Shown here in pieces: positions 11,106 through 49,621 of a stretch of 64,000 nt of DNA. Every line of letters begins with the position of its first letter. Within the stretch, counting starts at the first letter, position 1. The stretch lies in IMG/VR virus record IMGVR_UViG_3300021256_000005. One strand, written 5' to 3'. Below the pieces are notes generated by a model, which did no database searches, had not been told where the DNA came from, and saw only the letters and a program-made list of their open reading frames with translations. This DNA comes from a virus. Position numbers and translations under genes: made by a program.

Positions 11106-11132
11106 CCTATTTCTCCTTTTGACATATTAAAA

Positions 11133-11673: not shown

Positions 11674-11684
11674 TTTTAATGTTT

Positions 11685-13054: not shown

Positions 13055-13448
13055 TTTTTACATCCATTTCTGCAACAAAACGCTGTTTTGGTGAATACTC
13101 ATTAAACTTGCACGGTATTAACACACCACCTGAAGTAACCTTCCTAAGTTCTTCAAATGATTCATAAGTACAGAATACTATATCATTTTCGAGAAACAAA
13201 TATTCTCCATTCTTTGCTCTTGCGGGTTCAATCCATAATTCATCGTTGCAAATTGTCACATAATATCCACCTCCATAATCATAATAGTCCACTTTTAATA
13301 ATTTAATATCAAGTTTTCTATTAAAATTACGGATTAAATAAATAACACAATCAACAATATCTTTATCTGGACACACGAAACTTACATTATAATCACTACT
13401 CAGTTCAATAATGTTGTCGTATAAATTCTCATGATCTTTAAAAATCAT
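13047..13448 (-). CDS. hypothetical protein
   Basis: 133-aa ORF with a 4-nt overlap with the cysteine desulfurase gene. Confidence 0.6.
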   Translation of the reverse strand: MIFKDHENLYDNIIELSSDYNVSFVCPDKDIVDCVIYLIRNFNRKLDIKLLKVDYYDYGGGYYVTICNDELWIEPARAKNGEYLFLENDIVFCTYESFEELRKVTSGGVLIPCKFNEYSPKQRFVAEMDVKND

Positions 13449-14560
13449 AACCTTTTCTCCGTTAAATCACGAAGAAATCCTGTGATTTGAATTAACTTAT
13501 CAATCACATAATCAATTTCTTCTTTTGTATTAGTATAATAAAAACTAAATCTTACACAGGTATAAATTTCTGGCTCTTTCATACCTATAGCTTCTAACAC
13601 GTAAGATTTCTCAAGTACATTAGAATTACAAGCAGAACCAGTCGATGCGCAAATTCCAATATTATCTAGCATAGAAACGATTGTATTTCCATCACAACCA
13701 TCAAATTGTACGTTTACAATGTGCGGAGACACGTTCTCATTTAACACTACATGGGCGTAAGGTATTCTGCTGACACAATCAACAAAATAATCATGCAAGT
13801 CACGCATATAATGTCTAGGTTGACATACAATATCTTTTAATGCTACAGATAATCCAACGATTGCCGCTGTATTCTCTGTACCACCAACTAACCCTTTTTC
13901 TTGATGACCATGAATAATCGTGCGAAGCGGAATAGAAGAGTACAATACAGCCGCACCACGAATACCGCCTATTTTATGCGCACCAAACGTGAATATATCA
14001 ACATGTAAGTGTCGAATGTTTACAATTTCATATCCAATTGCTTGCGTAGCATCACACATAAGTACATGATTATACCGATGCGCTATATCCGCAAGTTTAC
14101 AAATTGGCTGAATACACCCAGTTTCATTATTAACATATTGCACAATCACCAAAGAATTAGCAGGAGCGTGCTGACAAAATTCCTGATATGAAGACATATT
14201 TATCAATCCATTACTATCGACTGGTAAAATGTAAGAATTATAAGACTGTACACATTCGATAATATCAACGTGTTCTACTGCCGAACATAAAATATGCACA
14301 GAAGGATGAGATTTCATATAGCCTTGAATTGCTATATTATTTGCAGTAGTAACTGAGTTAGTAAAATAGACGTTTTCTACTTCACCGCGTAGAATATCAG
14401 CAATATCAGCACGTGCCTTTTCAATCGCTTCACGTGATTGTTTTCCTAACGAATGAGTTGAATTTGGGTTTCCGTATATTGTTGTCAGATAAGGCGTAAT
14501 TGCGTCTAACACGTGTTTTGAAGGCCGTGTTGTAGCCGCCTGATCGAAATTCACTCTCAT
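13445..14560 (-). CDS. cysteine desulfurase (NifS/IscS-like, class V aminotransferase fold)
   Basis: 371 aa. PLP-lysine block FTFGAHKIGGIRGAAVLY and active-site Cys loop ASTGSACNS. The N-terminal NFDQAATT..P is typical of the family. Confidence 0.85.
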   Translation of the reverse strand: MRVNFDQAATTRPSKHVLDAITPYLTTIYGNPNSTHSLGKQSREAIEKARADIADILRGEVENVYFTNSVTTANNIAIQGYMKSHPSVHILCSAVEHVDIIECVQSYNSYILPVDSNGLINMSSYQEFCQHAPANSLVIVQYVNNETGCIQPICKLADIAHRYNHVLMCDATQAIGYEIVNIRHLHVDIFTFGAHKIGGIRGAAVLYSSIPLRTIIHGHQEKGLVGGTENTAAIVGLSVALKDIVCQPRHYMRDLHDYFVDCVSRIPYAHVVLNENVSPHIVNVQFDGCDGNTIVSMLDNIGICASTGSACNSNVLEKSYVLEAIGMKEPEIYTCVRFSFYYTNTKEEIDYVIDKLIQITGFLRDLTEKRL

Positions 14561-15228: not shown

Positions 15229-16038
15229 TCAGCTCTCAGAGGAACTTAAAAGAACTTTTTTACACGTTTGCGAACAAAATTGTTTGTTTTTGTATGCTTC
15301 AAATAAGTGATGGCACACAGGACACTCTTTCAAATTCTTCACTAGTTTATAATGCGCATAATATTGTTTTCCCAAGTTATTAAAGTTCTCAACCCAAAAT
15401 GCAACTGGTTTAGTTGTGTCAAGGTTCAAAATATTTACTTTGAACATATCAAGTTTGTCCACATGCAAGGTTTGTTTCGTCCCACGGTCAACAGTGCGAA
15501 TATCATAATTTAACATTCCTTTACCAATCAAATCATTTAAACACTTGAAATACTTGTCAGTGTTAAAGTTGGTTACATCCGCCAACTGTTTCAGATCAAC
15601 CGCTAAAATATGAAACCAATACCAATATTTCTCACTGGACAAATAATCGTCCACATGATACTTTTCCATGTGGCAGGTATCAATCCACTTTTTATGTACC
15701 AATAAAGCGAACAAGACTTTTTCATACTCCCAATTTTTCACTGACCGTATATTTTCCAGTTCGCATTCATAAACAGGCACTTTCACGTTATAGTCTTTAA
15801 TGCGAGTAGCAGAAGCAATGAAGCGGTTATAAATCTCAGTTTTATCCTTTACGTCTAAATAACATAATACACCATCACTTAATTCATCAAATTTATATCT
15901 GATTTCTCCCTTCGTGTAATTATTGTTCAACATATAAACAGCAACAGCGGTTAACTCTTGTCTGCTAAACTGTTTTGTTTTTAATTTACCAATCTTAAAA
16001 ATATATTCGCCGTATGTATAATAATTATGAATAATCAA
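15229..16038 (-). CDS. hypothetical protein with C-terminal zinc ribbon
   Basis: 269 aa. The C-terminus is CPVCHHLF..(x9)..CSQTCKK. 4-nt overlap with the RNAP gene. Confidence 0.6.
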   Translation of the reverse strand: MIIHNYYTYGEYIFKIGKLKTKQFSRQELTAVAVYMLNNNYTKGEIRYKFDELSDGVLCYLDVKDKTEIYNRFIASATRIKDYNVKVPVYECELENIRSVKNWEYEKVLFALLVHKKWIDTCHMEKYHVDDYLSSEKYWYWFHILAVDLKQLADVTNFNTDKYFKCLNDLIGKGMLNYDIRTVDRGTKQTLHVDKLDMFKVNILNLDTTKPVAFWVENFNNLGKQYYAHYKLVKNLKECPVCHHLFEAYKNKQFCSQTCKKVLLSSSES

Positions 16039-18815
16039 ATTTGCACCTCTGTATATTTCTTCCCTAAATACTCTGCACCGCTTTTATCTTCAATTACCGC
16101 AATATGCCTACCTTCCGGTAGTATGCTCAAAATATCTTCGCCCAACATATCCCAGATGAACGCTTCATCAAAACCGGATGTTTTATTGCCAAAATCAATC
16201 AGCACGTTAAATAAGTCGTATGTATTAGTTACAAGTTCGTCCAATTTGCCACGATATTCTAAATCGAACATACGTTTGGCATTACTGATAATACGGTGAA
16301 AATCGTCGTCATTGATATTGTCAAGCAAGTGTCTCACTAATGAGAGATATTTATTATTACAATAGTCACGGTAAATCTCGTAAACAGTGTCGTAATTATA
16401 TCTCACTGGTGGCATCCCGTATGACATCAAAACATTTTCTCCCTTGATTTTACGGAACGAAATATTATCCTCAACCCGCTCAAATTTGTGGCAAAGCTTA
16501 TTCATAATGCATGGCGAATCCAGAACAGGAGAGAAGTATTCAACACGATTCACGAATTTACGTTCTTCTTTTGTTTTGTTCGGCTTATATTTCAAGTCGT
16601 TGTATTTGATTTGAAATTTTGCCTTACAGATTTTCTGAAAACTTTTCATATGATTTGTATACGATTTATGCAAATTATCATACAGATAAATCATAAAGTA
16701 CGGCTTCTTTGTAATCACCAACGAATTACGTTTGTATTTTGCGTCTATCACCTCTGGACTATCATTTTCTAAATCAATTTTTACACGCTTAATCCATTCT
16801 TCTGGAAATTCAGGAGATACACCAAGTTTAATTTTATCAATCTCTGCACCAATGATCTCACGCAGTAATTTCAGACGTGTTAAAATGATTCTATGTTCTT
16901 CTGGTTTGGTATCAGCAGGAAACAAAGGCAACATAGCATTGAGAGATGTGCTATTGTTCGTGATTTGACCTACTAAAGTGTCGAATCCGTCCATATCGCA
17001 AGCAATCATGTTAGCGTATGTCGGCTTTCGTTTCGGTGCTTTGTCTTTGTCATATGTGATTACATTGTTTTTATAATACGCCCCCTCAATTAGTTGCTGA
17101 TTATCAGTTGTAAACGCAATATCACCGTCGAAATCCGAGTCACTATGGCGTATTGTGCTAGTATCATAAATACTATACACGATTCCAGAATACAAATACT
17201 GAAACCATTGTTCGCATTCATCGTCATCGTACACAGATAAGATATTATGTTCATGCCGATCCACCATAGGACTTCGCATCGCATCTATAGTATTTACACC
17301 ACGGTTCAGCCAAAACTGTGTATATACACAATTAGCAGGAATAAACCCCTGTATTGGCATATTAGAAGCTTGTTGCAGTAGCGGAATAGGATCAGCCAAC
17401 TGGAACTGATAATTTCCCTTCGCCCAAACACGACCAAGTTTTGCTTGCTTGAATGATTCCTTAATACTGTGATAAATCTTACGCTGTATGTATTCGTCTT
17501 TAAGCAAGTCTTGATTTTTCACAATTGCCTTTGTAAATAAACTACCGCAACTATTCATCATATCCTGCCAAGTTTCATCGGCGTGTTTACACCCAATAGC
17601 ATACAGATTAGCGTATAACGATTCACCGCTACAGATTTTTTGAAACCATTCAATTGTCGGCTGTATCAACTCGTCTATCGCTTTATCGGACAATCCGCAA
17701 TTCTGAATGTACTGGTAATTCAGTTGAGAATATTCTGCGTCATATTTTTTGTTGTATCTAGCAACACCCCAGTACAGTCCGTATTTGTCATGATAGTCAA
17801 CATACTCACGCACCGATGAATAGTAATCATGCATCTTAAACTGCGACTCTGTGAGTAAAACGTCTATTTCGTCCACATTAAACAATTCGCCGTAAATACT
17901 GCGGATTTCAGTTACCCCACACCGTTCCTTTAAGTATTTACGGAAATCAAACGTCAGCAGATTGCCCTTTACGAATGCCGTCCTAATTACGAACTGGCAA
18001 GCAGTATATCCAATCCCCATATCCTCAGACCAAAGTTCAGCCATTTCTGGCGTGATTAAACCTTCGCCATCACAGCTGTTCAAAACAACGTCCATAGTAG
18101 TAGGTTCGACTGTCTTTGTTCCATCCTCATGCTTCACGATATAGTCTATCTTCTGCTGTGGAATAGTAGTTTCAACGTCAGCAATTACGCAAATTCGAGG
18201 TTTTCTCACCCACAGAACGGAAGAAAACGACAGGGCAAAATACGCTGATAGTTTCGACAGTACAATTTCATCAATCGTACCGTAGAGTCCGCAGTACAAA
18301 TGTTCATTGAGTATATCGTAATATTCATCGTTGATAAACGTCACGGTATTACGTCTCATTTGTCCTGCACCACAACAGAACCGAACGTAATGTTTACCAT
18401 TGCAGTAGAAGCCGTGTTCCGCTATATGCTTATAGTGTGCCTTATTTACAACTTTGACATTGATAAAATCCGTCAGGTAAGTCATATCGAGTAGTTTGTC
18501 CTTCAACTGTTTAATAGACTTTTTGGTACGCTGATTTGTGTGCTTTGTACGTACTTTATCAATTTGTACCCGCACTTCTTGAATGTCGTTGTATAATTCA
18601 AGCGGTGTGCGTTTCTCCCCCTGTAAGTCTCTCAGCTTGCGTAATACTAAATTGTCACCAATGGAAACAATTTCTTTATTTTTAACCGCCTTCTGATAAC
18701 TGTACTGTCCCAGATCGAATCGTGGCTCAGTTGGTAGTTTCCCACCAACTAAACCTGTCCGATAAATCTTCGTTGTTTTAATTTTTAGTATGTCGTATAA
18801 AATTTGTTTTGGCAT
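16035..18815 (-). CDS. single-subunit two-barrel RNA polymerase, YonO / RdRP-like
   Basis: 926 aa. ..IDAMRSPMVDRHEHNILSV.. is followed by ..IRHSDSDFDGDIAFTTDN. The R-x-P block plus DxDGD metal-binding loop is the signature of double-psi beta-barrel RNAPs (beta-prime NADFDGD, eukaryotic-type RdRPs, SPbeta YonO). Confidence 0.65.
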   Translation of the reverse strand: MPKQILYDILKIKTTKIYRTGLVGGKLPTEPRFDLGQYSYQKAVKNKEIVSIGDNLVLRKLRDLQGEKRTPLELYNDIQEVRVQIDKVRTKHTNQRTKKSIKQLKDKLLDMTYLTDFINVKVVNKAHYKHIAEHGFYCNGKHYVRFCCGAGQMRRNTVTFINDEYYDILNEHLYCGLYGTIDEIVLSKLSAYFALSFSSVLWVRKPRICVIADVETTIPQQKIDYIVKHEDGTKTVEPTTMDVVLNSCDGEGLITPEMAELWSEDMGIGYTACQFVIRTAFVKGNLLTFDFRKYLKERCGVTEIRSIYGELFNVDEIDVLLTESQFKMHDYYSSVREYVDYHDKYGLYWGVARYNKKYDAEYSQLNYQYIQNCGLSDKAIDELIQPTIEWFQKICSGESLYANLYAIGCKHADETWQDMMNSCGSLFTKAIVKNQDLLKDEYIQRKIYHSIKESFKQAKLGRVWAKGNYQFQLADPIPLLQQASNMPIQGFIPANCVYTQFWLNRGVNTIDAMRSPMVDRHEHNILSVYDDDECEQWFQYLYSGIVYSIYDTSTIRHSDSDFDGDIAFTTDNQQLIEGAYYKNNVITYDKDKAPKRKPTYANMIACDMDGFDTLVGQITNNSTSLNAMLPLFPADTKPEEHRIILTRLKLLREIIGAEIDKIKLGVSPEFPEEWIKRVKIDLENDSPEVIDAKYKRNSLVITKKPYFMIYLYDNLHKSYTNHMKSFQKICKAKFQIKYNDLKYKPNKTKEERKFVNRVEYFSPVLDSPCIMNKLCHKFERVEDNISFRKIKGENVLMSYGMPPVRYNYDTVYEIYRDYCNNKYLSLVRHLLDNINDDDFHRIISNAKRMFDLEYRGKLDELVTNTYDLFNVLIDFGNKTSGFDEAFIWDMLGEDILSILPEGRHIAVIEDKSGAEYLGKKYTEVQI

Positions 18816-18824
18816 ATATTCCTC

Positions 18825-20564
18825 TTAAATAATCCACGCTTCACATTGAATATTGCTAATATTTAATTCGTGTTTAGCACGTGTCATTGCTACATACATA
18901 AGTCGTGCTTCGTTTTCTGGTGCGTCACGCCAACTTGGAAACCTATCTGGCTCGCAACCAATAATATACACACGGTCAAATTCCAATCCTTTACTGCCAT
19001 GAATCGTCATAAGAGAAACACCGCTATGATCGGATTTCTTTTTCTTATGATTCATCGTGCTAAATACAATAAAGTTATCAATCGAACTAAACCGCCACGC
19101 CATAGAAGTAAGGTTGAAAATTGAATCTCGTTTATCTTCGACTGATACTGAATCATATCGTTCATCAAGCCACTGATTCACCCTGCACAGTGCAACAATA
19201 CTATCAATGATTTTTCCAACCTGCACGTTCCGTTCTTCTTTGGTCTTTAACCGAGAAATTATATTATTGAGTTTCTCTACGTTATCTCTTTCAAATGCCT
19301 TGTCAAACTTGTGGTCAAGTAATGCTTCATACATAGAATAGTTTCGCATGGTGGCTTCTGCCCGCAGATCATCTACCAAACTTGACTTAAAGTAAGTAGC
19401 AGGGTATAAGCGTGATTCTAACAGTTGTTCCAATGCTTCATCATCACTTGTGCGATTAACTAATCTTAATACCGCCATAATACCTTTAATCGGCTGACGC
19501 TCAAAAAACGAATCACTACTATATAGCGTGTAAGGAATGTTCTTATCTTTTAGCAAGGCTTCAAGCGAGTCTACCATTGCGTTGTTACGGTACAGAACAG
19601 CCGTGTTGTTCAATTCTGCTTCTGACAGCTTCGACAAACGTTCACAAATACTCTCTGCTTCATCCAATGGAGTATCATAAGTGCTTATATTTATTTTAGT
19701 TTTAGAGCAGTCATTAGCTTTGGCGTAATATTTTACCTTGTCACCCACAAAAGGTTTAATAAAATCATTAGACGCCGTTACTATTGTATCGTTGGAGCGA
19801 TAGTTCGTATTCATGTAGATTACGTGATCCGCTTTATTACTGAACTGATAAAACAGCTCAGAATTAGCACCCCGAAACGAATAAATAGATTGTAAATAAT
19901 CGCCTACAATGAAGATGTTGTTATCAGGACACATCAATTCCATTAACTTGTACTGAACTACGTTGTTATCCTGCGCTTCATCGTTCAATAAGTATTTCCA
20001 AGTACGTCCAATATTGTCCGCCTGATATTCCTTTAAGGTAAGCAGTAACCATTCGTCAAAGTCGTACAGATGATGTTTATGACAGTAGTCCTGATAATCG
20101 CTGTAGTAGTAGCGCATCTGCTTCTCAGAGTATTCGCAATCCTTCTCCTTAAATTCATCGGTTGGATAAATACCCCAGTTTTTCTGATAAGAAATCCAAG
20201 CACGAATATCTTTGATGTTAATTTTTGGATTGTCTTTCGACCATCTGCGTTTCAGCTGATAATCTTTTGGCATATTGAGAAGATCCTCGTAACCGATTTC
20301 TTCCAATAAACGCTTGCAGATTGAGTGCATTGTGCCAGTGGTGACGCCGGTAATATTTTTGTCTGCCAGTTTCTTCTTTAGATCATTAGAAGAAGCAAGA
20401 GTGAAAGACAGAGCAACAATGTCATTTGGATTGATGCCTTGTTCAATCATATAGTTAATCCGTTCTACTAATACAGTAGATTTTCCGGAACCCGCTGAAG
20501 CAACCACTTGAACAGAACCGTCAATTGTGTGAATTGCTTCAAGTTGCTGTTTGTTATATTCCAT
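18825..20564 (-). CDS. UvrD/PcrA/Rep-like SF1 DNA helicase
   Basis: Walker A ASAGSGKSTVL, motif II LNDEAQDNN, motif III VGDYLQSIYSFRGA, motif V TIHGSKGLEFD, motif VI YVAMTRAK. Confidence 0.9.
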   Translation of the reverse strand: MEYNKQQLEAIHTIDGSVQVVASAGSGKSTVLVERINYMIEQGINPNDIVALSFTLASSNDLKKKLADKNITGVTTGTMHSICKRLLEEIGYEDLLNMPKDYQLKRRWSKDNPKINIKDIRAWISYQKNWGIYPTDEFKEKDCEYSEKQMRYYYSDYQDYCHKHHLYDFDEWLLLTLKEYQADNIGRTWKYLLNDEAQDNNVVQYKLMELMCPDNNIFIVGDYLQSIYSFRGANSELFYQFSNKADHVIYMNTNYRSNDTIVTASNDFIKPFVGDKVKYYAKANDCSKTKINISTYDTPLDEAESICERLSKLSEAELNNTAVLYRNNAMVDSLEALLKDKNIPYTLYSSDSFFERQPIKGIMAVLRLVNRTSDDEALEQLLESRLYPATYFKSSLVDDLRAEATMRNYSMYEALLDHKFDKAFERDNVEKLNNIISRLKTKEERNVQVGKIIDSIVALCRVNQWLDERYDSVSVEDKRDSIFNLTSMAWRFSSIDNFIVFSTMNHKKKKSDHSGVSLMTIHGSKGLEFDRVYIIGCEPDRFPSWRDAPENEARLMYVAMTRAKHELNISNIQCEAWII

Positions 20565-20602
20565 ACAGTCTCCTTTTATAAATTTATGTTTGGTTTAAGA
20601 AC

Positions 20603-20631
20603 AGTATAATCCGGAATGGGGTTAAAGTCAA
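20603..20631 (-). promoter_or_regulatory. sigma-A-like promoter for the leftward arm
   Basis: The minus strand reads TTGACT-N17-TATACT. It lies ~40 nt upstream of the AAAAGGAG SD and ATG of the helicase gene. Confidence 0.6.
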
Positions 20632-20655
20632 GAGAAAATAAAAATAAATTAAGTA

Positions 20656-20684
20656 TTGACAAAATTAAAAAGTTGTGTTATTTT
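20656..20684 (+). promoter_or_regulatory. possible rightward promoter firing into the non-coding region
   Basis: TTGACA-N17-TATTTT with an extended -10 TG (tgtTATTTT). The -10 is weak and the context is AT-rich, so false positives are likely. Confidence 0.35.
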
Positions 20685-20783
20685 ATTATAATATATATAT
20701 ATTAATTATATATTATATATATTTATATATTAATTATATATAAATTATATATTATTAATATAATATTATTACGTTTTATTCGG

Positions 20784-20868
20784 CAGTCGTGTCAACGACT
20801 GACGATAGCGTGACGTTGCATCGCAACGGAACGCGCCCCGCCGACAGGCGGCGTTGCCGACAGGCAAC
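20784..20868 (+). other. GC-rich multi-hairpin island 1 (four consecutive short hairpins)
   Basis: CAGTCG-tgtcaa-CGACTG (20784-20801); CGTTGC-atc-GCAACG (20814-20828); CCGCC-GACA-GGCGG (20838-20851); GTTGCC-GACA-GGCAAC (20853-20868). The last two share the core GCCGACAGGC. Confidence 0.8.
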
Positions 20869-20962
20869 TGTATAATAGTATTATATATATTTATATTATA
20901 TATAATATATATTATATTTATATATATATATATATTATATATTTATATTACATACACTTAGA

Positions 20963-21028
20963 CAGCTACGCCAGTAGCTGGCTAACGGTGCTGGTATTGC
21001 GTAGCAATGCCTGCGCCGAAGCGTCGCA
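20963..21028 (+). other. GC-rich multi-hairpin island 2
   Basis: CAGCTAC-gcca-GTAGCTG (20963-20980). GGTATTGC-gta-GCAATGCC (20993-21011), with one T.G pair that is a wobble only in plus-sense RNA. TGCG..CGCA bulged hairpin (21012-21028). Confidence 0.8.
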
Positions 21029-21048
21029 GACATATATATTATATATAT

Positions 21049-21092
<44 letters not shown>

Positions 21093-21154
21093 TATACAAT
21101 AAGATAATATATTTGTCAAGTATAAAATTATAATTATTTTAATAATATATTTAA

Positions 21155-21214
21155 TTAAATATATTTAAGTATTATATTATATACTATATATTTAGTTAAA
21201 TATATTTAAGTATT
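21155..21214 (+). repeat. two direct copies of the ~20-bp element TTAAATATATTTAA-GTATT
   Basis: Perfect 14-bp palindrome TTAAATATATTTAA followed by GTATT, at 21155-21173 and 21196-21214 (41-bp spacing). Confidence 0.85.
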
Positions 21215-21383
21215 ATTATAATATATAATTATTTATATATTATTATATATCACTGTATATTATTATATAATAATTAAGCACCATAGTTATTATATATTAT
21301 ATATTACTAATTACATACATCATCAATTACATACATTACTAATTACCAGAGTTATTATTTTATTATTGTTTATTGTTTATATA

Positions 21384-21453
21384 CTTTTGGCTCCTTTTGC
21401 TAACGCAAAAGATCACCAAAAGTTCGTATTCCTTCGCAAGCGAAGAAATACGA
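21384..21453 (+). other. GC-rich island 3: two nested (stem-in-stem) hairpins
   Basis: First hairpin: outer stem CTTTTGG/CCAAAAG with inner CTTTTGC-taac-GCAAAAG (21384-21422). Second hairpin: outer TCGTATT/AATACGA with inner CTTCG-caag-CGAAG (21424-21453). Confidence 0.8.
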
Positions 21454-22864
21454 GTGTAATATATATAAATAAATATATTATTATATTTATATTATTATAT
21501 ATTTATTATATATTATTATATTATATATTTATTATTATTTATATTATTATATATCTATTATTCTGCTGAGTTATATTATATTAAACAGTGTGGTTGCTAT
21601 ATATTATTATTTATTAAATATTTTATCTATTACTTTATCTATCGTTTGTATTATTCATTCACACTATTGAATTGTTATTATATACCCATACAACAACACA
21701 CAGTCATTTTGTGCGCTGTTTTATATATGCAGTTTAATAAGTTTACCCTAAATTATTAAAACGTCTGTATAAGCCTAATAGATATGTTATTTGAGGTGTG
21801 CCTTTTTTGGCGGGTTCTATTTTGTTGCGTGCTAGTTCCTGAGCTGTTTAGTTTATTATTTAATCGCTGTTATTTGCGCCGCCAAATTATATATACCAAA
21901 CGTCCTGTATTTTTAGCGTGTTTGTATTTGTTTGGTTGCCTATTTAGTTTAGTGTTCTGTAAGATGAGACAGTAAACTATTTGGATGTTATATTTAGTTA
22001 TATATTATATTATATATTTATATATTATTGACTGTCCAATTATTTTTCTGCGCCTTGTATCTTTGTCGGCTTTGTTTTATATTATTACTACAGTATTTTA
22101 TAGAACCGCTTGTCTGAAACATGCCTATATCTACACCTATTGATTGTACGCATGTTTTTATGACACCACCCTATAACTTTTACGTCTGAGAATAAAAACG
22201 TCTATATGAGCGTTTTAGAGCATTGTATAATACATTGATGATTGTCTATGTGTTTTGTTTAGTTAAATAAATTTAATTAAATTTCTTTAAGTATTTATTG
22301 GTGCGCCACTAGAAATATAGGCAGTATTTGACTGCTTTGTTTTGCGATGGTAAACTGTATTAAATAATTATTTGCGTGTTTTATTACCGCCTGCGAAATA
22401 GAATAATGTATATTTATTCATTGTTTATACATTTTGACTTGTTTGGTTGTTAATTTTTGCGGCTGTAATTTTTGGTTGTAGCCGTTAATGTTTGCGATGG
22501 TCTGTTTAATGTGTAAATATACCCCGCCTGTTTATTAAGTATGAGATCGCTGTTGGAGTACTTTTTTAATGTGTTTTGTATGTTATTTAGCTGAAAGATA
22601 GTTAAGCCATTAAGCAGTCAATTAGTTTAGATGATTGTTTTATGTTTGATTGAACAGAGCAATAGTGGTTGTTTCGTATTATTATATAGCACTTAAATGA
22701 TTGCTATTGTTTTGCTGATGGTTTATTCTGCGTTATTAGACAGCTAATTAGTTGAGCAGATATATGCTAATTTGTCCGCGCTGTAATTAGTTTATTTATT
22801 GGAGCAGTAAGTGATTTGCTAGTTCTATATTGCAGTTGTTTAGTCAGTGATGTTTGATGTTAAA

Positions 22865-22884
22865 TTAGTTAGGTTCCTAACTAA
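22865..22884. repeat. perfect inverted repeat TTAGTTAGG-tt-CCTAACTAA
   Basis: Two 9-bp arms separated by 2 nt. Lies just left of the iteron cluster. Confidence 0.8.
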
Positions 22885-22943
22885 CTAGGTGCTAAGCCAT
22901 TTTTGTGGCGACTGAGGGTGTTATTTTATATTAATTATATATA

Positions 22944-23265
22944 GTTACTAATTAGTTACTAGTATTTAGCGGTTGATAATATAGTGCAGGACAATTGCCT
23001 AATTTATATGGTTACTTATTGGTTACTAATTATGTTGTTGTTTTATGCAGTGAGTGGATTCTATTAGGCGATTGAGAAGTTGATTCTGGCAGTTAATTAT
23101 TATTGAATTAAGCCGCTGAATTACTTTATTTGATTGTTGTTTTGGAAGGTGTTATTTTGTGTTGATTCGAAATTATTAGGACGTGATGTAACTAATTGTA
23201 GTTACTAATTGGTTATTAGTTACTTATTAGGTATTAAGTATGTTGTTAGTTATTTATTAGTTACG
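22944..23265 (+). repeat. iteron-like cluster of GTTACT(A/T)ATT decamers
   Basis: Copies at 22944, 23011, 23022, 23188 (GTAACTAATT), 23201 and 23219, all on the same strand, plus degenerate copies (22955, 23244-23265). Confidence 0.75.
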
Positions 23266-24619
23266 TTGCGATTTATTTAGTTGCTTCTTAATTTATTTAT
23301 GTTTTGTAATATTACTTATTCTGCGACTGATTAAGTATTGGGAAATTCATTAATCTACTGATTTTGTTATGGTTTCTAAGATATCTTCTGACGTAAAATT
23401 GGTTTTGATTAATAGTTAAATATATTTAATTATTTAGTTGAGTAGTTTTACGATTGCTGTATTGATCTGATTGTAGTTGGTAAGAAGTAATATTATTGGC
23501 TGTTAGAACTATATGGTATTAGCAGAGTATATGATTGTTGTAGTTTAGTGGTTAATTTGTTGTGTTGTTTAATTATTAAACAGTGATTTATTTAGTAGCG
23601 AGCAACAATAAGTAATAAGTTTTTAGTTAGAGTGTTAATTAGTTGTAGTGCTGATTGAACACTGATGGTTTAGTAGTGATTTATTAGAGTGATGATTGAT
23701 TTATTTATGTTTTGGTAAATTTATTTGGTTTTTGTAAATAATTTTAGGTAGATATATTTAATTATTATTTATAATGACTGAGTTGGCAAGTTATGAATGT
23801 TACTTGAAGTATTCAATTCATTTTAATAAGCCTGAGATTTTCTTGTGTCGATTTAACTTATTGAGAGTAGTTTTATAGGACGCAATTCTGATGGAACAGT
23901 TTAACAATAAGGCTACTTGATCGTTTAATTAATTAGTTAGTTATTAGGTTTTTAGTTTTTTAGAGATTGATTTAGTGGATAGTTATTTATTAATGCGGGA
24001 TTTGGTGAGTAGAACTTTTATTTAGTGAATGTGGCAGTTTGATAAGTAGGTGATGGTATAGGTTGTTAGTTAGTAATGTTGATTGGTGGTAGTGTTTATA
24101 GATTAGTGGTTATTTAGTGAATTAGTTAGTGATTGTTGCTGATGTTGATTGGTTGATAGTGTATTAGTTATGATGTTTGTTTGATTGATAGGTGTGATGG
24201 CTGTTTGTGGGTGAGTGAGTTATTTGGTAATTTTATTTGATTTTTTTGTAATTAGTTTTTGTTAGTTTCTTTAATAGTGAGTTATTTATTTGGTGAGTTT
24301 GTTGGATTTTTGGAATGTTAGTGAGTTTTTAGTGAGTTGGGAAGTGAGAAGGGTGAGATTTTGACGGGGTGTGTGAGTTTACCTCCATATAGCTATTTTA
24401 GCTTTACACTTTTGTCAAAATGTATAAATAACCCCCTTTTGACGTCGGATAATAAAAATTACCCGACATGGCACTTTTTTGACATTTATGTCAAAAACTT
24501 AATAGTTAAATTTTTTTAACTAATTTTTTAATTATATATTATATATTATGCATAATATATTATATATCATATATTATATAAAATTATATTTGACACAATA
24601 TAAATTTCCAGAGCAACAA

Positions 24620-24715
24620 AATACTTAAAAATCTTTAACCATTCCCATCCCATCAAAAATACTTAAAATAATTTAACTATTATTTTTGCTCTAAAAATAC
24701 TTAAAAATTTTTAAC
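24620..24715 (-). repeat. three tandem copies (exact 38-bp period) of the ~20-bp element, opposite orientation to the 21.2-kb copies
   Basis: AATACTTAAAAATCTTTAAC (24620), AATACTTAAAATAATTTAAC (24658) and AATACTTAAAAATTTTTAAC (24696). Their reverse complements (GTTAAAgATtTTTAAGTATT) match most positions (about 19 of 23 by eye) of the 21196 copy. Confidence 0.8.
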
Positions 24716-24814
24716 TATCTCACCAGAACAAAAAATATATTTCATCAAATATAATTTGATACAACGTTATGCTGCACGTCACCAAACAAAAAATAAATTT
24801 TTTCCAAAAACCTA

Positions 24815-24843
24815 TTGACACAACGCGATACTAGTGCTATACT
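24815..24843 (+). promoter_or_regulatory. strong sigma-A-like promoter of the rightward arm
   Basis: TTGACA (24815-24820), a 17-nt spacer, then TATACT (24838-24843) with the extended -10 TGc immediately upstream. Predicted start near 24850. Confidence 0.7.
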
Positions 24844-24849
24844 ATAGTC

Positions 24850-25420
24850 AAGATAAAGATATAACTTATTTATCTTATCGTTCGGGCACTCTGCCCGCCC
24901 ACCGCTATCACAGCGGGCGTACCTTGACAAGTTACCTGTTGGTAACTCATAAGATAGGAGAACACCGTGACGGGTGAACTCTGCCTATCGTTAGTTTGAT
25001 AATTCTAACGCCTAAAAATTATCAGCCTATCTATAGGCGTAGTTTGCATACCCATGATAGGTTTACTATGAAATCGGCAACTGAAACCGTAGTTATGATA
25101 GAGTCGTTTAGACTCAAGTAGTCGGGTACAAGCCGAGTAGTAAATTGGGATTCATGGCAGACAAACTACAGCTATAGACAGGTGACTTACCCTTTGTATA
25201 TGTGAGGGTGTCGGGCTTTTCGGGTGTCCCATCAATACATCCAGGACGAAAATCATATACCGAACAAAATTGTCAACCGACGTGCCAGGGGTTGAATGTT
25301 TGCGGACTCAGTGCGCTTAAATAGCAGATAAATTTACACCGCAACATTGGCCGCCTGGTATGTCGTTACCTTGTAAGTTGCTTTAATTGCATGAGTTTAT
25401 CGTGCAATTAACGCAACTTA
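24850..25420 (+). ncRNA. candidate large structured RNA or ~600-nt structured 5' leader of the first early gene
   Basis: No credible ORF. Visibly more G+C-rich than its flanks. Many perfect helices: 24850-24876, 24884-24896, 24931-24946, 25101-25115; an H-type pseudoknot at 24989-25024; a long-range 8-bp helix GTAGTTTG (25039) with CAAACTAC (25162); and a 17-bp hairpin at 25374-25420 just before the SD. Confidence 0.45.
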
Positions 25421-25447
25421 TAAAGCGCAATAAAAAAGGAGAAAACT

Positions 25448-26023
25448 ATGTTAAAATTTAATCAGATTTCAAACGGCTTTATTGACAAGACAGCAAAGGA
25501 AAACAAGGCGGGCATTACCCGCATAATTAACTACGGCGTATCCCTCGTTGATCACGCCGAGAAACTTCTGTCTTTGCAGGAAGAAAAGAAGGAAGCAGAA
25601 AACAATCTGAATTCTGCTTCTGAAAAGTTAGACGGCACAATCTCCATTGACGAACGTGCCGCAACTCTGTTATCGTATCGGCTGAAAGTTAACGCAGTCA
25701 GTGAGAAGATTAAAGCAGAAAACAAAAGTTTTCGCTCGAAATCAAAGGTATTCACCGATGCCTTCAAGACGTCTGAATTATATCAGGCGTACAAAGAGTT
25801 TGACGGAACTGGAAACAGTTACCTTGATGCCATGTCAACGTTTCTTGATTTAGTCGGTATTGTACCGACTAAAAAAACTGTCAAAAAACTTTGCCGTCTT
25901 GCTGGTGGCTCAGTAACTACTGGCAATAAAGAAATAATAAATTGCCAATTCACAAAACGCCTGTCTAAAAAGGCGTTTGAAACTTTAATCATTAGATTGC
26001 TGTGTGAAGAGTTCGCACAATAA
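25448..26023 (+). CDS. hypothetical early protein
   Basis: 191 aa with SD AAAAAGGAG 7 nt upstream. Coiled-coil-like N-terminal half. Confidence 0.75.
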   Translation: MLKFNQISNGFIDKTAKENKAGITRIINYGVSLVDHAEKLLSLQEEKKEAENNLNSASEKLDGTISIDERAATLLSYRLKVNAVSEKIKAENKSFRSKSKVFTDAFKTSELYQAYKEFDGTGNSYLDAMSTFLDLVGIVPTKKTVKKLCRLAGGSVTTGNKEIINCQFTKRLSKKAFETLIIRLLCEEFAQ

Positions 26024-26039
26024 TTAGAAGGAGGAAATT

Positions 26040-31095: not shown

Positions 31096-32256
31096 ATGTT
31101 AACATTTGAAAGAAATTACACTGACAAAACTGCAAAGAGCATCGCTAAAATGATTAACGGAAACCGCACAGAAATGACGTTTGATAACTGCGTTCAGCGG
31201 AACTATGTGTGGAAAATTGAACAGCAGTCAATGTTAATTGATTCAATTTTACGTGGGTATCCTGTGCCAGACATTTACGCAAACCGCACAGAAGCTCATA
31301 CAGAAAAAGGCACAAAATACTATGTCTATGATGTGTTGGATGGTCAGCAGAGATTAACTACAATTGCTCGATTCGTGGCAGGCAAATTCGCATTGAAAGG
31401 ACTGCCTGAGTTCGAGGATGAAGAAGGCAACAGTGTTGATCTGAATGATTGCTACTATGACGATCTTGACGAGAATTACAAAGAGGTACTGAACAACTTT
31501 ACATTCCGCATCCAGTATTATGACAACATGGATGATGAATCGGTTGCTGAGATTTTCCGTAGGCTGAATAACGGGAAGTCGTTAACCAACATTGAAAAGA
31601 TTCGTGTTTATGCGAAATCGTTTGATACGATTCGAGAATTAGCAAATCACCCGATTTTCAATATTGGCGAGATGATGACCGAAGCATCCCGCAGAGGTTA
31701 TCACAATGAAGATATGGTGATTAAATTATTCATGATTCTTCATGACGACACTAATCTTGACGCAAAACACGTGAAAGAAGTTCTTGCTAATGCTGAGTTT
31801 ACTGAACAGGATGTTACGCAGATCAAAACAATTTTAGATTATGCACGGAAGATTCATGACACAATTTTAGCCGATGATACAGATTTGAAATTAAATAAGA
31901 AAATCGCTAAACGGATGTATGGCAAGGTGCATTTTGTATCACTTATTCCGCTGTTCATGGAGACGATTGAAAATGGAATGCCTGATAGTTCTGTAGTTGA
32001 ATTTTTACAGGTGTTCTACGGTAGCAAAACAGCTTCTATTAGCACTCGTTACAATGGATGCAGTCATAGCGGAAGTAACCATAAATCTTCCGTGGATACC
32101 CGCATTGCTGAGGTAAAAAAGGCGTGGGAAGAATTTGAGCCAATGAAAGTAAAAGAGGACTCCGAAGTAGGTACTGAGTCTGTAGAGGACGTAGAACAGG
32201 AAGAAATCTCTGATTCTATAGTGGACGATCTTCTTGCCGATTTAGCAAACGAGTAA
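31096..32256 (+). CDS. DUF262 (ParB/Srx-superfamily, GmrSD N-terminal-like) protein
   Basis: QRNYVW...IDSILRGYPVP..IY and the DGQQRLTTI motif are diagnostic of DUF262. Acidic C-terminal tail. No obvious HNH/DUF1524 nuclease block. Confidence 0.75.
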   Translation: MLTFERNYTDKTAKSIAKMINGNRTEMTFDNCVQRNYVWKIEQQSMLIDSILRGYPVPDIYANRTEAHTEKGTKYYVYDVLDGQQRLTTIARFVAGKFALKGLPEFEDEEGNSVDLNDCYYDDLDENYKEVLNNFTFRIQYYDNMDDESVAEIFRRLNNGKSLTNIEKIRVYAKSFDTIRELANHPIFNIGEMMTEASRRGYHNEDMVIKLFMILHDDTNLDAKHVKEVLANAEFTEQDVTQIKTILDYARKIHDTILADDTDLKLNKKIAKRMYGKVHFVSLIPLFMETIENGMPDSSVVEFLQVFYGSKTASISTRYNGCSHSGSNHKSSVDTRIAEVKKAWEEFEPMKVKEDSEVGTESVEDVEQEEISDSIVDDLLADLANE

Positions 32257-32348
32257 TAAATTTATACCATGCGCCGAATACAGATTCGGCGTATGAATAA
32301 GGTTATTACCTTGCAACTTACTAAACTATAATAAGAAGGAGAAAAACT

Positions 32349-33236
32349 ATGGCAAATGTGTATGAAATTGTAACAAACAACATTATCGAGGAAATGAAAA
32401 AAGGAATCATCCCTTGGAAAAAGCCGTGGACAAATGAAATCTATGTTGACGCAAATGGCAACCGCAGACCGTTTGGAGCCTACAATAGAATTACGAGACA
32501 GCCATACCACGGGATTAACCGTTTGTTATTACCGCTCGAAGGTGAGTATGCAACATTCAAACAGTGGCAGAAATTAGGTGGCAAAATTAAAAGAGGTGAA
32601 CATGGACACATGGTAGTTTATTACAAAATCATGTCACCGATGAAAGACGATACAGAAGAAGAAGCAGAAATTAAAAAAGGATTCCCACTGTTAAGATATT
32701 ACACTGTATTCCATGTATCACAGGTAGAAGGCGTTGAGCCTGTAAAGTGGCGCAAATTATCTGTGCAGGAAGAAACATTGAGCGGTGACGAGGTGGAAGA
32801 AAACGCAGATAAGGTACTGAATGATTATTATAAGCGTGAAGCCATTACAGTAACTGAGATCAATGGAGATAGAGCATTTTACAGACCCATGACAGATTCG
32901 ATTTGTTTGCCTGAAAAATCTCAGTTCAAAGAGTTGAGTGAATATTACAGCACGAAAATTCATGAAACTGTGCATAGTACAGGACATACAAAAAGGCTAA
33001 ATAGGTTTGAACCTGGCGGATTTGGTAGTGAATCGTATAGCAAAGAAGAATTGGTTGCAGAAATTGGTTCTGCTATTTTGATGAACATATTAGGAATTGA
33101 TACAGAATCCACATTCAAAAATTCAGTTGCTTATTTACAGAGTTGGATTTCTGTATTGCAGAATAATCCGAAGTGGATTGTACAGGCGAGTAGCAAAGCA
33201 GAAAAAGCAATTAAGCTGATTACAGGGGAGGAATAA
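32349..33236 (+). CDS. ardC: ArdC-like antirestriction protein (ssDNA-binding N-domain + zincin protease domain)
   Basis: N-terminal ..IIEEMKKGIIPWKKPW (ArdC-N/DUF1738 signature). C-terminal HExxH: IHETVHSTGH, then EELVAEIGSA. Confidence 0.8.
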   Translation: MANVYEIVTNNIIEEMKKGIIPWKKPWTNEIYVDANGNRRPFGAYNRITRQPYHGINRLLLPLEGEYATFKQWQKLGGKIKRGEHGHMVVYYKIMSPMKDDTEEEAEIKKGFPLLRYYTVFHVSQVEGVEPVKWRKLSVQEETLSGDEVEENADKVLNDYYKREAITVTEINGDRAFYRPMTDSICLPEKSQFKELSEYYSTKIHETVHSTGHTKRLNRFEPGGFGSESYSKEELVAEIGSAILMNILGIDTESTFKNSVAYLQSWISVLQNNPKWIVQASSKAEKAIKLITGEE

Positions 33237-49485: not shown

Positions 49486-49504
49486 AGTAATTATAAATTT
49501 ACAG

Positions 49505-49533: not shown

Positions 49534-49594
49534 AATTACAGTTGATGAAGTTCTTTGGAACTGTCAACAAAATATAGTTTCCTTTCCTTCTTAG

Positions 49595-49620: not shown

Positions 49621-49621
49621 T

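What the first reader, a model, noticed from the sequence alone, without database searches (positions are those of the whole stretch)
22200..24360. >2-kb tract almost devoid of cytosine on the plus strand (G-less on the minus strand) and saturated with stop codons
**Seen in sequence**
- By eye I count 6 C in the 420 nt of 23941-24360.
- There are zero C in 24061-24120 and in 24301-24360.
- G is about one third of 24061-24120 and T dominates.
- The skew builds gradually from about 22.2 kb and ends abruptly near 24370.
- The words TTAGT, TGATTG and GTGAGT recur, so TAA, TAG and TGA occur in every plus frame. TTA (the complement of TAA) blocks the minus frames.

**Established knowledge**
- Strong G-over-C skew on the non-template strand favours stable R-loops, and R-loops prime replication at ColE1-type and some phage origins.
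- C-rich, G-poor RNA is the hallmark of Rho-utilisation sites.
- Persistently single-stranded DNA loses C by deamination.

**Inferred options**
1. It is an R-loop-prone origin region transcribed rightward.
2. It is a leftward transcript forming a giant unstructured CA-rich RNA, acting as a Rho or RNA-binding-protein sink.
3. It is a mutational footprint of a strand that is chronically single-stranded.
4. It is a one-strand, one-base-free spacer that escapes a C- or G-dependent host nuclease or modification.

I know of no described phage element of this kind.
Basis: partly seen in the sequence, partly recalled or inferred. Interest (0 to 1): 0.8.

Follow-up and report, generated by a model that had tools for sequence, protein, structure and literature searches.

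The report
C-free arm beside phage genome end
The 2.2-kb cytosine-free tract is real, non-coding, and is a greatly enlarged version of a strand-skewed arm that flanks the probable DNA-packaging/genome-end site in SPbeta-like phages, a feature I found no description of in the papers I searched.

Summary
Window 22200-24360 is A .26, C .07, G .22, T .45. It has 6 C in the last 420 nt, no ORF over 38 codons, no codon periodicity, and C falls steadily towards an abrupt right edge.

The window is an SPbeta-like phage. The tract lies in a 4.9-kb ORF-free gap between the helicase/YonO late arm and the early arm.

Its right edge coincides with an ~80-nt module (GGTGTG...ATGTAAA..CCCCC, 24358-24440). 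A profile built only from other lineages finds this module there. In SPBc2 the same module lies in the yonP-yonR spacer, where the virion genome opening point has been mapped. Two GenBank phage records begin at its two edges, 251 nt apart.

Of 26 module copies with both flanks available, 17 have a G-rich/C-poor arm on one side and a C-rich/G-poor arm on the other, against 1% of random positions. So on both sides the strand ending 3' at the cut lacks C.

Best reading: a footprint, and perhaps an adaptation, of repeated single-strandedness of resected genome ends. This is inferred, not shown. R-loop origin, Rho sink and packaging-protein platform remain rivals.

The parts
22200..24381 (+). G/T-rich, C-depleted arm (the finding). 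It is non-coding. C falls from about 11-13% at the left to 1-3% at the right, where it ends abruptly.
   Evidence: composition, gradient rho 0.79. (no ORF, no recoding). (skew kept in relative L009 at 79% identity). (ssDNA MFE 0.0 kcal/mol for 24001-24300, either strand, against a window mean of -11.0 +/- 4.0).
24358..24440 (+). Conserved terminus module (GGGGTGTGTGAG...AAAATGTATAAATAACCCCC), homologous to the module in the SPbeta yonP-yonR pac/opening-point spacer. The first cut is inferred at about 24381/24382 (range 24375-24392).
   Evidence: profile R1, built from 12 other lineages without the window, has its best hit in the 64 kb here (E 0.0013, model positions 4-87); alignment; position in SPBc2 and phi3T, and the BUCT083 record start.
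24382..24613 (.). About 232-nt central block between the two arms. It is the inferred counterpart of the 251-nt block of SPBc2/phi3T. It holds the module's 3' half, an SPBRE-like box, the palindrome TTGACATTTATGTCAA (24479-24494) and a (TA)n stretch. It is 90-95% conserved in L009.
   Evidence: conservation. (C-free stretch ends at 24381, G-free run starts at 24614). (251 nt between the BUCT083 and BUCT082 record ends). (a precise ~250-bp block in all isolates).
24614..24800 (+). Mirror-image C/A-rich, G-depleted arm (G .03-.04). It contains a 3 x 38-nt direct repeat at 24618-24718.
22501..22537 (+). Partial second copy of the module's 3' half (TGTAAATATACCCCGCC), near the far end of the arm.
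   Evidence: second-best hit, E 0.025. L012 and L126 also carry a copy at each end of their G-rich arm.
22182..22198 (+). SPBRE-like box ACGTCTGAGAATAAAAA at the left border of the tract, followed by a perfect TATAAT at about 22237.
   Evidence: two matches in the window, at the two borders; chance of two or more is 12%. (phi3T SPBRE core AAGAATAAAAATAAAAT). (SPBRE is the MrpR operator).
24442..24458 (+). Second SPBRE-like box, ACGTCGGATAATAAAAA, inside the central block.
20565..22199 (.). Remainder of the ORF-free gap on the late-gene side. It holds an extreme (TA)n region (GC 13-20%) with three GC-rich hairpin islands, and a perfect consensus promoter on the - strand (21119-21091) facing the helicase/YonO arm.
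16035..20564 (-). UvrD-like helicase (18825-20564) and YonO-like single-subunit RNA polymerase (16035-18815). This is the start of the late arm and the synteny anchor to SPbeta yonP-yonO.

Best explanation
WHAT IT IS (well supported)
The tract is the late-gene-side arm of a three-part element found across SPbeta-like phages.
- A conserved ~80-nt module starts a central block of about 230-250 nt.
- On the yonO side the block is flanked by an arm whose + strand is G-rich and C-free.
- On the early-gene side it is flanked by an arm whose + strand is C-rich and G-free.
- In SPbeta this element lies in the yonP-yonR spacer, where the virion genome opening point (pac) has been mapped.
- In this phage the left arm is enlarged from the usual 0.2-0.6 kb to 2.2 kb.

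HOW IT WORKS (inferred)
1. On both sides, the strand whose 3' end points at the block lacks C.
2. Those are the strands left single-stranded when a linear genome end, or a terminase cut, is resected 5'->3'. Such resection precedes circularisation by annealing of a terminal repeat, or recombination-dependent replication.
3. The phage encodes a PD-(D/E)XK nuclease and an AAA_24-domain ATPase next to its replication genes. I read the latter as a possible Sak4-type annealing protein, which is inference.
4. Repeated single-strandedness deaminates C to U (read as T) and A to hypoxanthine (read as G). The effect is strongest next to the end and fades with distance.
5. This would give the observed gradient, the sharp edge and the T and G enrichment.
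6. The result is a three-letter strand that cannot fold, so selection for structure-free tails may reinforce the pattern.

The tract does not code for protein.
For: Identity and context
- SPbeta-like phage.
- Profile R1, built without the window, hits 24358-24440, exactly at the abrupt edge.
- The same module sits in the SPBc2 yonP-yonR spacer and in phi3T.
- Literature places the opening point/pac there and describes a precise ~250-bp block.
- GenBank records BUCT083 and BUCT082 start 251 nt apart. In SPBc2 the last C-free run before the first point (about 80 nt) breaks 2 nt past it, and a ~60-nt G-free run starts at the second.

Family-wide skew (regex version)
- 26 of 27 distinct modules have G>2C upstream.
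- 18 of 26 have C>2G downstream.
- 17 of 26 have both, against 0.97% of random positions.

Single-strand footprint in this lineage
- C gradient.
- The last 420 nt are A .22, C .014, G .29, T .48. That is what complete C->T plus partial A->G would make from the genome average.
- The right arm mirrors this: G .03, A .45.
- In window vs L009, C is the least conserved base (52-57%, against 88-91% for T). A<->G differences outnumber C<->T by 90 to 39 although purines equal pyrimidines.
- Arm divergence of 0.18 is close to the 4-fold-site divergence of the adjacent late genes (0.18-0.21). So the sequence drifts at about the neutral rate while the composition is held.
- Predicted ssDNA folding energy is 0.0 kcal/mol for 24001-24300, against -11.0 +/- 4.0 window-wide.
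- Candidate recombination proteins: PD-(D/E)XK nuclease and AAA_24-domain protein.
Against: - No read-level data, so no physical end has been shown in this phage. The cut positions rest on homology and on where two database records start.
- The window's module is divergent: E is only 0.0013 in a 64-kb search, and it falls below nhmmer's 1e-3 cut-off in a 3.5-Mb search.
- In Bacillus-type relatives the G-arm is purine-rich (A .40, C .07, G .25, T .28; L012 has G .37), not T-rich. Simple C->T deamination does not explain that, which argues for selection on composition or some other process.
- The tract holds 100%-conserved islands (23697-23771) and an oriented 8-mer, AATTAGTT, nine times. So parts of it are functional sequence, not just a footprint.
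- Whether minutes of single-strandedness per infection cycle can drive C to 1% has not been quantified.
- L004 and L009 are assumed to come from one genome when used as the neutral-rate yardstick. The early gene on the other side has a 4-fold divergence of 0.51.
Confidence: 0.5

Rival explanations
1. Packaging-recognition platform. The arms are extended pacL/pacR-like DNA on which the small terminase, or another end-binding protein, oligomerises. The one-base-free composition would be a by-product of arrays of oriented short binding words and DNA-shape requirements, not of single-strandedness.
For: - The location is at the mapped pac/opening region of SPbeta.
- Oriented recurring words: AATTAGTT nine times, + strand only.
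- By my reading of the sequences, the few surviving C sit in recurring (T/G)GCGA(T/C)TG and TTTTACGAT words. ATCGTAAAA/TTACGAT repeats occur in SPBc2, phi3T and L012. These were not counted by a tool.
- Conserved islands lie inside the arm.
Against: - 2.2 kb is about ten times longer than any characterised pac recognition region (own knowledge: SPP1 pac is about 0.26 kb).
- Most of the arm drifts at about the neutral rate (0.18 against 0.18-0.21 at 4-fold sites).
- Word arrays do not predict a smooth C gradient or mirror-image polarity.
- No small-terminase gene or binding data were identified here.
Confidence: 0.15
2. R-loop-primed replication origin. The arm is transcribed rightward, its G-rich RNA stays hybridised to the C-rich template, and the hybrid primes leading-strand synthesis at the module. 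The (TA)n region to the left would serve as the unwinding element.
For: - G>>C on the non-template strand for rightward transcription.
- A perfect TATAAT at about 22237, next to an SPBRE-like box at the left border.
- An adjacent AT-rich region of GC 13-20%.
- SPbeta replication has not been investigated, so its origin is unmapped.
- Cumulative GC skew turns upward in this gap.
Against: - GGG runs are not enriched (7 vs 7.6 expected) and there is no G4 motif on either strand.
- The -35 element of the candidate promoter is poor, and its conservation could not be checked because L009 starts at 23152.
- The model does not explain the mirror-image G-free arm, unless transcription is convergent.
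- The physical genome end, not an origin, is what has been mapped at the homologous SPbeta site.
Confidence: 0.15
3. Unselected spacer that simply shows the genome's strand-asymmetric neutral equilibrium. In these phages coding strands are already C-poor at 4-fold sites. A non-coding stretch transcribed or replicated in one direction, perhaps seeded by expansion of C-free short repeats, would then drift further the same way.
For: - 4-fold sites of late genes on the coding strand are A .29, C .09, G .19, T .42, close to the tract average.
- Coding regions of 23-25% GC relatives reach C .03 (L121 11791-12450).
- The divergence rate is about neutral.
- Small local tandem repeats are present.
Against: - The strand that matches is the wrong one. 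The late genes' coding strand is the - strand, while the tract is C-poor on the + strand.
- The right-hand 450 nt (C .01-.03, G .28-.31) lie far beyond any 4-fold-site value.
- It does not explain the sharp edge at a conserved module.
- It does not explain the mirror arm found at 17 of 26 modules against 1% of random positions.
Confidence: 0.08
4. Giant Rho-loading / unstructured-RNA insulator. Leftward transcripts leaving the early control region would be G-less, C/A-rich and unstructured. They would be terminated by Rho before reaching the late arm.
For: - The - strand RNA would be A .45, C .22, G .07, U .26, with C/G above 3 over 2.2 kb.
- Predicted structure is nil near the module.
- Both RNAs transcribed away from the module would be G-poor.
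- An sRNA candidate, ncr1052, running in the yonP direction is reported in the SPbeta yonR-yonP spacer.
Against: - No convincing conserved leftward promoter lies at the right border.
- Known rut sites are about 80-100 nt long (own knowledge).
- The host, and whether it has Rho, are unknown.
- The model does not predict a gradient.
Confidence: 0.07

Closest known systems
pac / genome-opening region of Bacillus phage SPbeta (yonP-yonR spacer)
   Same: - Same synteny: a divergent spacer next to the yonO arm.
- Homologous ~80-nt module.
- A G-rich/C-poor arm on the yonO side and a C-rich/G-poor arm on the early side.
- SPBRE-like boxes nearby.
   Different: - The arm is 2.2 kb here, against about 0.2-0.33 kb in SPBc2 and phi3T.
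- It is T/G-rich here and A/G-rich there.
- The module is divergent.
- The helicase gene is in the late arm here.
- In the papers read, the SPbeta pac is located only to this spacer, with no sequence-level definition or mention of strand skew.
pac regions of headful phages such as SPP1 (pacL-pacC-pacR)
   Same: A cleavage site flanked by non-identical left and right recognition arms, with unidirectional packaging (own knowledge; the SPbeta review makes the comparison).
   Different: - No sequence similarity is reported between the SPP1 pac and the SPbeta region.
- Known pac arms are about 0.1-0.3 kb.
- They are not known to be one-base-free or to carry mirror-image strand skew (own knowledge).
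Heavy-strand G+T richness of vertebrate mitochondrial DNA
   Same: - One strand is enriched in G and T and depleted in C and A.
- There is a gradient attributed to the time spent single-stranded, through C->U and A->hypoxanthine deamination (own knowledge; one search lists PMC4182315).
   Different: - There the cause is strand-displacement replication over a whole genome, and the signal is read at 4-fold sites.
- Here it is a local pair of non-coding arms around a genome end.
- The skew is far stronger here (GC skew up to 0.89).
Eukaryotic telomeric repeats
   Same: The strand running 5'->3' towards the DNA end is G/T-rich and C-poor, and is the strand exposed as a 3' tail. This is an analogy only (own knowledge).
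   Different: - No telomerase-type short tandem repeat.
- No G4 motifs.
- The phage genome circularises or forms concatemers.
R-loop-forming G-skewed regions (ColE1 RNA II origin, immunoglobulin switch regions)
   Same: A kilobase-scale G>C skew on one strand.
   Different: - G clusters are not enriched.
- Transcription is not shown.
- The mirror arm and the genome-end context have no counterpart in those systems.

Membership tests
SPbeta-family pac / genome-opening element | Lies in the divergent spacer bordering the yonP-yonO (late) arm | tested here: met
   The YonO-like RNAP (PF05183) and helicase border the gap. YonJ, YonG, terminase and portal lie further left. In SPBc2 the module sits at about 64.5 kb, between yonP and yonR.
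SPbeta-family pac / genome-opening element | Carries the conserved module GGTGTG..GAA..(about 45 nt)..ATGTAAA..CCCCC | tested here: met
   Profile R1, built from 12 other lineages, has its best window hit at 24358-24440 (E 0.0013, model positions 4-87). Caveat: the hit is weak, and it falls below nhmmer's 1e-3 cut-off in a 3.5-Mb search.
SPbeta-family pac / genome-opening element | G-rich/C-poor arm 5' of the module and C-rich/G-poor arm 3' of the central block | tested here: met
   In the window, upstream is A .21, C .01, G .30, T .47 and downstream has G .03-.06. Across the family, 17 of 26 modules show both arms, against 1% of random positions.
SPbeta-family pac / genome-opening element | A physical end of virion DNA, or a terminase cut, maps at the module | not testable with these tools
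   No reads are available. Indirect support only: the literature mapping in SPbeta and the start points of the BUCT083 and BUCT082 records.
Single-strand deamination footprint (mtDNA-type asymmetry) | On the exposed strand C falls, T rises, A falls and G rises, graded with exposure | tested here: met
   Window arm: C gradient rho 0.79; the last 420 nt are A .22, C .014, G .29, T .48 against a genome average of .34/.16/.19/.31. A<->G 90 against C<->T 39 differences.
Single-strand deamination footprint (mtDNA-type asymmetry) | The same mutational flavour in all lineages that carry the element | tested here: not met
   Bacillus-type arms are A/G-rich with T not raised: SPBc2 A .39, C .07, G .26, T .28; L012 A .32, C .04, G .37, T .27.
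R-loop-primed replication origin | G clusters or G4-prone runs on the non-template strand, downstream of a promoter | tested here: not met
   7 GGG runs against 7.6 expected, and no G4 motif. The candidate promoter at about 22237 has a poor -35 element.
R-loop-primed replication origin | Transcription through the tract and replication initiation at its end | not testable with these tools
   This needs RNA-seq, DRIP and origin mapping.
Rho utilisation (rut) region | C-rich, G-poor, unstructured RNA | tested here: met
   The - strand is C .22, G .07. Predicted folding energy is 0.0 kcal/mol near the module, computed with DNA parameters.
Rho utilisation (rut) region | The region is transcribed in that sense from an identifiable promoter, and termination depends on Rho | tested here: inconclusive
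   Only weak - strand promoter-like sites lie to the right of the tract (24610-24583, 10 of 12 matches). Overall, fewer promoter-like sites were found than in shuffles. Rho dependence cannot be tested.
Protein-coding or recoded gene | A long open frame under some known genetic code, with period-3 composition | tested here: not met
   The longest stop-free run is 38/55 codons (standard code). It is 52/78 with TGA as sense and 73/85 with TAG as sense. There is no period-3 autocorrelation. Indels against L009 are not multiples of three.
Known RNA family or known phage DNA | A match to Rfam or to deposited phage genomes | tested here: not met
   No Rfam hit at E<=1 in 20300-25600. No megablast or blastn match among 50,697 phage records.

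The most novel reading that the evidence does not exclude
SPbeta-like phages carry a previously undescribed kind of genome-end element. A short terminal block is bracketed by mirror-image 'three-letter' arms, so that whichever end is resected, the exposed 3' single strand contains no cytosine. The arms would be selected, not merely mutated, to give structure-free, telomere-polarity tails. Those tails would drive circularisation or recombination-dependent replication. Arm length (0.2-2.2 kb) would track how far resection runs.
Probability: 0.3. Interest if true: 0.85.

Novelty: new variant of a known kind. Interest (0 to 1): 0.68.

Why it matters
- The papers I read locate the SPbeta packaging site only to a spacer. 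They give no sequence-level definition, and SPbeta replication is described as not investigated. This analysis proposes a conserved module, two candidate cut positions 251 nt apart, and a compositional signature that can locate the site in uncultured relatives from sequence alone.
- If the arms record single-strandedness, they offer a natural read-out of how far phage genome ends are resected. They would also be a rare case in which a DNA-processing step writes a visible mutational gradient into a viral genome.
- If the arms are selected instead, they point to a telomere-like design principle: a one-base-free, unfoldable 3' tail.
- There is a practical consequence for metagenomics. Several short-read contigs of this phage end in or beside the gap: near 20750-20860 in the (TA)n region, at 25300, and the relative's contig L009 inside the tract.

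Tried and rejected
Searches that found nothing
- Megablast and blastn of the gap against 50,697 phage records.
- Rfam at gathering and at E<=1 thresholds in the gap.
- Single-protein scans of IMG/VR with the helicase and with the 191-aa protein.
- Exact-pattern scans with conserved islands in IMG/VR and in GTDB genomes.

Ideas tested and dropped
- Recoding or an alternative genetic code: rejected.
- Tandem-repeat origin: only short arrays are present.
- G-quadruplexes and G clusters: absent or not enriched.
- L126 and L131 as analogues. Their long G-poor stretches are largely small ORFs on a very C-poor coding strand in 24-25% GC phages, and L121 11791-12450 is a plain ORF with C .03. So low C alone is not diagnostic.
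- Reading the ATGTAAA..CCCCC motif as a sigma-A, ECF-type or T7-like promoter, or as the YonO promoter. By inspection the spacing is not conserved across lineages. The phi3T region upstream of yonK carries a different repeat, CAACATAAAAACTTG.
- Equating the motif with SPBRE. The phi3T SPBRE is AAGAATAAAAATAAAAT, a different element, although SPBRE-like boxes do flank the tract.
- Chi-site cluster. From my own knowledge, known Firmicute Chi sequences contain C, which the arm lacks.
- Goe14's 2-kb read pile-up as an equivalent long arm. Its spacer is only 960 nt.
- Placing sRNA candidate ncr1052 exactly relative to the module. I had no reliable coordinate calibration.
Full report
**Observation**

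- 22200-24360 is A .261, C .069, G .219, T .450, against a window average of .339/.160/.189/.312.
- 23941-24360 holds 6 C in 420 nt.
- 24061-24120 and 24301-24360 hold none.
- The 12 lowest-C 400-nt windows of the 64 kb all fall at 22901-24500.

Purines are balanced, so this is a keto (G+T) skew. GC skew reaches 0.89. C rises with distance from the right edge (Spearman 0.79, p 4e-4). The edge is sharp: a 95-nt C-free run ends at 24364, and after one C at 24365 the strand stays C-free to 24381.

The tract is not coding.
- Each frame has 60-91 stops in 728 codons.
- The longest stop-free run is 38 (+) or 55 (-) codons, and stays under 90 with TGA or TAG read as sense.
- There is no period-3 signal.

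It is not composition alone. AATTAGTT occurs 9 times, all on the + strand, against 0.46 expected. TGATTG occurs 13 times against 2.5 expected.

It is not an artefact. An ENA contig spans the whole gap with one mismatch in 21.7 kb, and a diverged relative keeps the skew (see below).

**Context**

The tract lies in a 4.9-kb ORF-free gap (20565-25447) between a leftward arm and a rightward arm.
- The leftward arm starts with a UvrD-like helicase and a YonO-like single-subunit RNA polymerase. YonJ-like and YonG-like proteins, terminase and portal follow.
- The rightward arm carries a DnaB-like helicase and a Pol III alpha subunit.

So this is an SPbeta-like phage, only 37% identical to SPbeta/phi3T in the helicase.

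The gap also contains:
- an extreme (TA)n region with GC-rich hairpin islands;
- a perfect consensus promoter facing the late arm (21119-21091);
- a strong rightward promoter (24815-24843), followed by a 600-nt ORF-free leader.

**A close relative**

Contig L009 comes from another sample. Its 191-aa protein is 84% identical to the window's. It aligns to 23152-26036 at 79% identity and keeps C at 1-7% per 200 nt.

Within the tract the differences are A<->G 90, C<->T 39, G<->T 38, A<->T 30, A<->C 7 and C<->G 3.
- C is the least conserved base (52-57%).
- T is the most conserved (88-91%).
- With purines equal to pyrimidines, strand-symmetric mutation predicts similar A<->G and C<->T counts. The imbalance means the asymmetry is still being produced.

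Tract divergence (0.18) matches 4-fold-site divergence of the neighbouring late genes in contig L004 from the same sample (0.18-0.21). It is well below that of the first early gene (0.51). Most of the tract therefore drifts at roughly the local neutral rate while its composition is held. Some islands are strongly conserved: 23697-23771 is identical, and 24283-24600 is 90-95% identical.

**The key link**

The abrupt edge coincides with a conserved module. I first saw it as ATGTAAA-N(2-5)-CCCCC, with GGTGTG..GAA about 55 nt upstream, in distant relatives L011, L197, L012 and others.

A sequence profile built from 12 lineages, excluding the window and L009, has its best hit in the 64 kb at 24358-24440 (E 0.0013, nearly full length). 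Its second-best hit is a partial copy at 22501-22537, near the far end of the tract.

The same module occurs in phi3T and in SPBc2, inside the yonP-yonR spacer.
- Restriction mapping and read-coverage analysis place the virion genome opening point/pac in that spacer.
- The GenBank record of phage BUCT083 begins inside the module (...GGAAGT|GCTATGGG...).
- The record of BUCT082 begins 251 nt further on (...ATCGAAG|).
- In SPBc2 the last ~80 nt before the first point are C-free and the first C comes 2 nt past it. A ~60-nt G-free run starts at the second point.

In the window the corresponding block would be 24382-24613 (232 nt). The G-free run begins at 24614.

**Family-wide pattern**

nhmmer finds 27 distinct modules in the fetched loci.
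- 26 of 27 have G>2C in the 240 nt upstream.
- 18 of 26 have C>2G beyond the block.
- 17 of 26 have both, against 0.97% of random positions in the same loci.

The element is thus: G-rich/C-poor arm, then a block of about 230-250 nt, then a C-rich/G-poor arm. Put another way, on both sides the strand whose 3' end points at the block lacks C. Upstream arms are 0.2-0.6 kb in relatives. The window's 2.2 kb is the longest seen.

One control matters. In relatives with 23-25% GC, ordinary coding strands also reach C .03. Low C alone therefore proves nothing. The diagnostic features are the absence of ORFs, the module and the mirror polarity.

**Mechanism**

Shown:
- location, homology, polarity and gradient;
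- ongoing asymmetric substitution;
- near-neutral drift;
- predicted absence of ssDNA structure near the block (0.0 kcal/mol against -11.0 +/- 4.0);
- a PD-(D/E)XK nuclease and an AAA_24-domain protein near the replication genes. Reading the latter as a Sak4-type annealing protein is my inference.

Inferred:
- The block edges are physical DNA ends or terminase cuts.
- 5'->3' resection from those ends exposes exactly the C-free strands.
- Cytosine and adenine deamination in that single strand, strongest next to the end, produces the gradient.
- This also produces the T and G enrichment on the left and the mirrored G loss and A gain on the right.

If the block is a short terminal repeat, both arms are the gaps left after the repeats anneal. 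Both would then be inherited, which would explain the symmetry.

The main weakness is that Bacillus-type arms are purine-rich rather than T-rich. This suggests selection for a C-free, G-rich 3' strand in addition to, or instead of, mutation. An unfoldable tail is one possible selected property.

**Rivals**

- A packaging-protein platform fits the location and the oriented words. It does not fit the length, the neutral drift or the gradient.
- An R-loop origin fits the G skew and the adjacent AT-rich region. But G clusters are not enriched, there is no G4 motif, and no convincing promoter was found. It also ignores the mirror arm.
- A Rho sink fits only the composition. The promoter of the late arm lies to the left of the tract.
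- A purely neutral spacer fails on strand, on extremity and on the link to the module.

**Comparison and novelty**

The locus type, a pac/terminal region, is known. The SPbeta pac has been located to this spacer. But the review reports no similarity to the SPP1 pac, gives no pac sequence, and says SPbeta replication has not been investigated. My searches found no description of one-base-free mirror arms. I therefore class it as a new variant of a known kind.

**Verdict**

The identity, an enlarged terminus-flanking arm, is well supported. The single-strand footprint/adaptation mechanism is the best-supported explanation but remains unproven (confidence 0.5).

Noticed in passing
window 11126-11683 (-): A full-length ROOL RNA (RF03087, 300 bits) lies between the YonJ-like and YonG-like late genes. 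SPbeta's YonO late transcript is reported to start upstream of yonK and an unannotated ncRNA. phi3T carries a DUF3800-VIII RNA upstream of yonK, and the Goe14 record annotates a 'skipping-rope' ncRNA beside hup. So different large or ornate ncRNAs seem to occupy the same part of the late arm.
   Followed up: partly
window 24815-25447 (+): A strong sigma-A-like promoter (TTGACA-17-TATACT with TG) is followed by about 600 nt of ORF-free sequence with normal GC before the first early gene. It is 72-93% conserved per 100-nt bin in L009 and has no Rfam match. It is a candidate long structured leader or new ncRNA.
   Followed up: partly
window 20650-21650: An extreme (TA)n-rich region (GC 13-20%) carries three GC-rich hairpin-like islands (20770-20870, 20955-21030, 21380-21450). 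A perfect TTGACA-17-TATAAT promoter on the - strand (21119-21091) faces the helicase/YonO arm. Short-read contigs of this phage end here (at 20748-20864).
   Followed up: partly
window 22182-22198 and 24442-24458 (+): Two boxes, ACGTC-N-GA-N-AATAAAAA, sit at the two borders of the tract. They resemble the SPBRE core (AAGAATAAAAATAAAAT in phi3T), which is the operator of the SPbeta master repressor MrpR. Chance of two or more such matches in the window is about 12%.
   Followed up: partly
window 24618-24718 (+) and 24479-24494: A 3 x 38-nt direct repeat (AAAATACTTAAAAATNTTTAACTAT) lies inside the G-free arm, and the palindrome TTGACATTTATGTCAA lies in the central block. TTGACATTTAT also occurs beside the tract in L093. 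Both are operator- or iteron-like.
   Followed up: no
SPBc2 64531-64781 (L229 2784-3034); phi3T/BUCT083 record 1-252: The records of BUCT083 and BUCT082 begin at the two edges of a 251-nt block. This matches the 'precise ~250-bp block' seen in read coverage of SPbeta-like isolates. The block may be a short direct terminal repeat, which would change the current headful-only view of SPbeta packaging.
   Followed up: partly
window 47453-49694 (+): An AAA_33/HD kinase-phosphatase-like protein and a T4 Rnl1-like RNA ligase lie directly upstream of tRNA-Gln(UUG). This looks like an RNA-repair module against anticodon nucleases.
   Followed up: no
window 31096-33236 (+): The early arm encodes a GmrSD_N-domain protein and an ArdC-N/MPTase-PolyVal protein, which are defence or anti-restriction candidates.
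   Followed up: no
window 13445-14560 (-): A class-V aminotransferase (cysteine-desulfurase-like, PF00266, E 2e-57) is encoded inside the late arm. That is unusual cargo for this position.
   Followed up: no
L012 11786-12740; L026 and L103 11780-13700: In Metabacillus and Nanhaiella prophages, the module with its two skewed arms lies in a gap directly downstream of the helicase gene that has no ORF of 70 aa or more. That gap is about 1.9 kb in L026 and L103. In L012 the element spans about 0.95 kb before the next gene. So the element moves relative to genes but keeps its internal polarity.
   Followed up: partly
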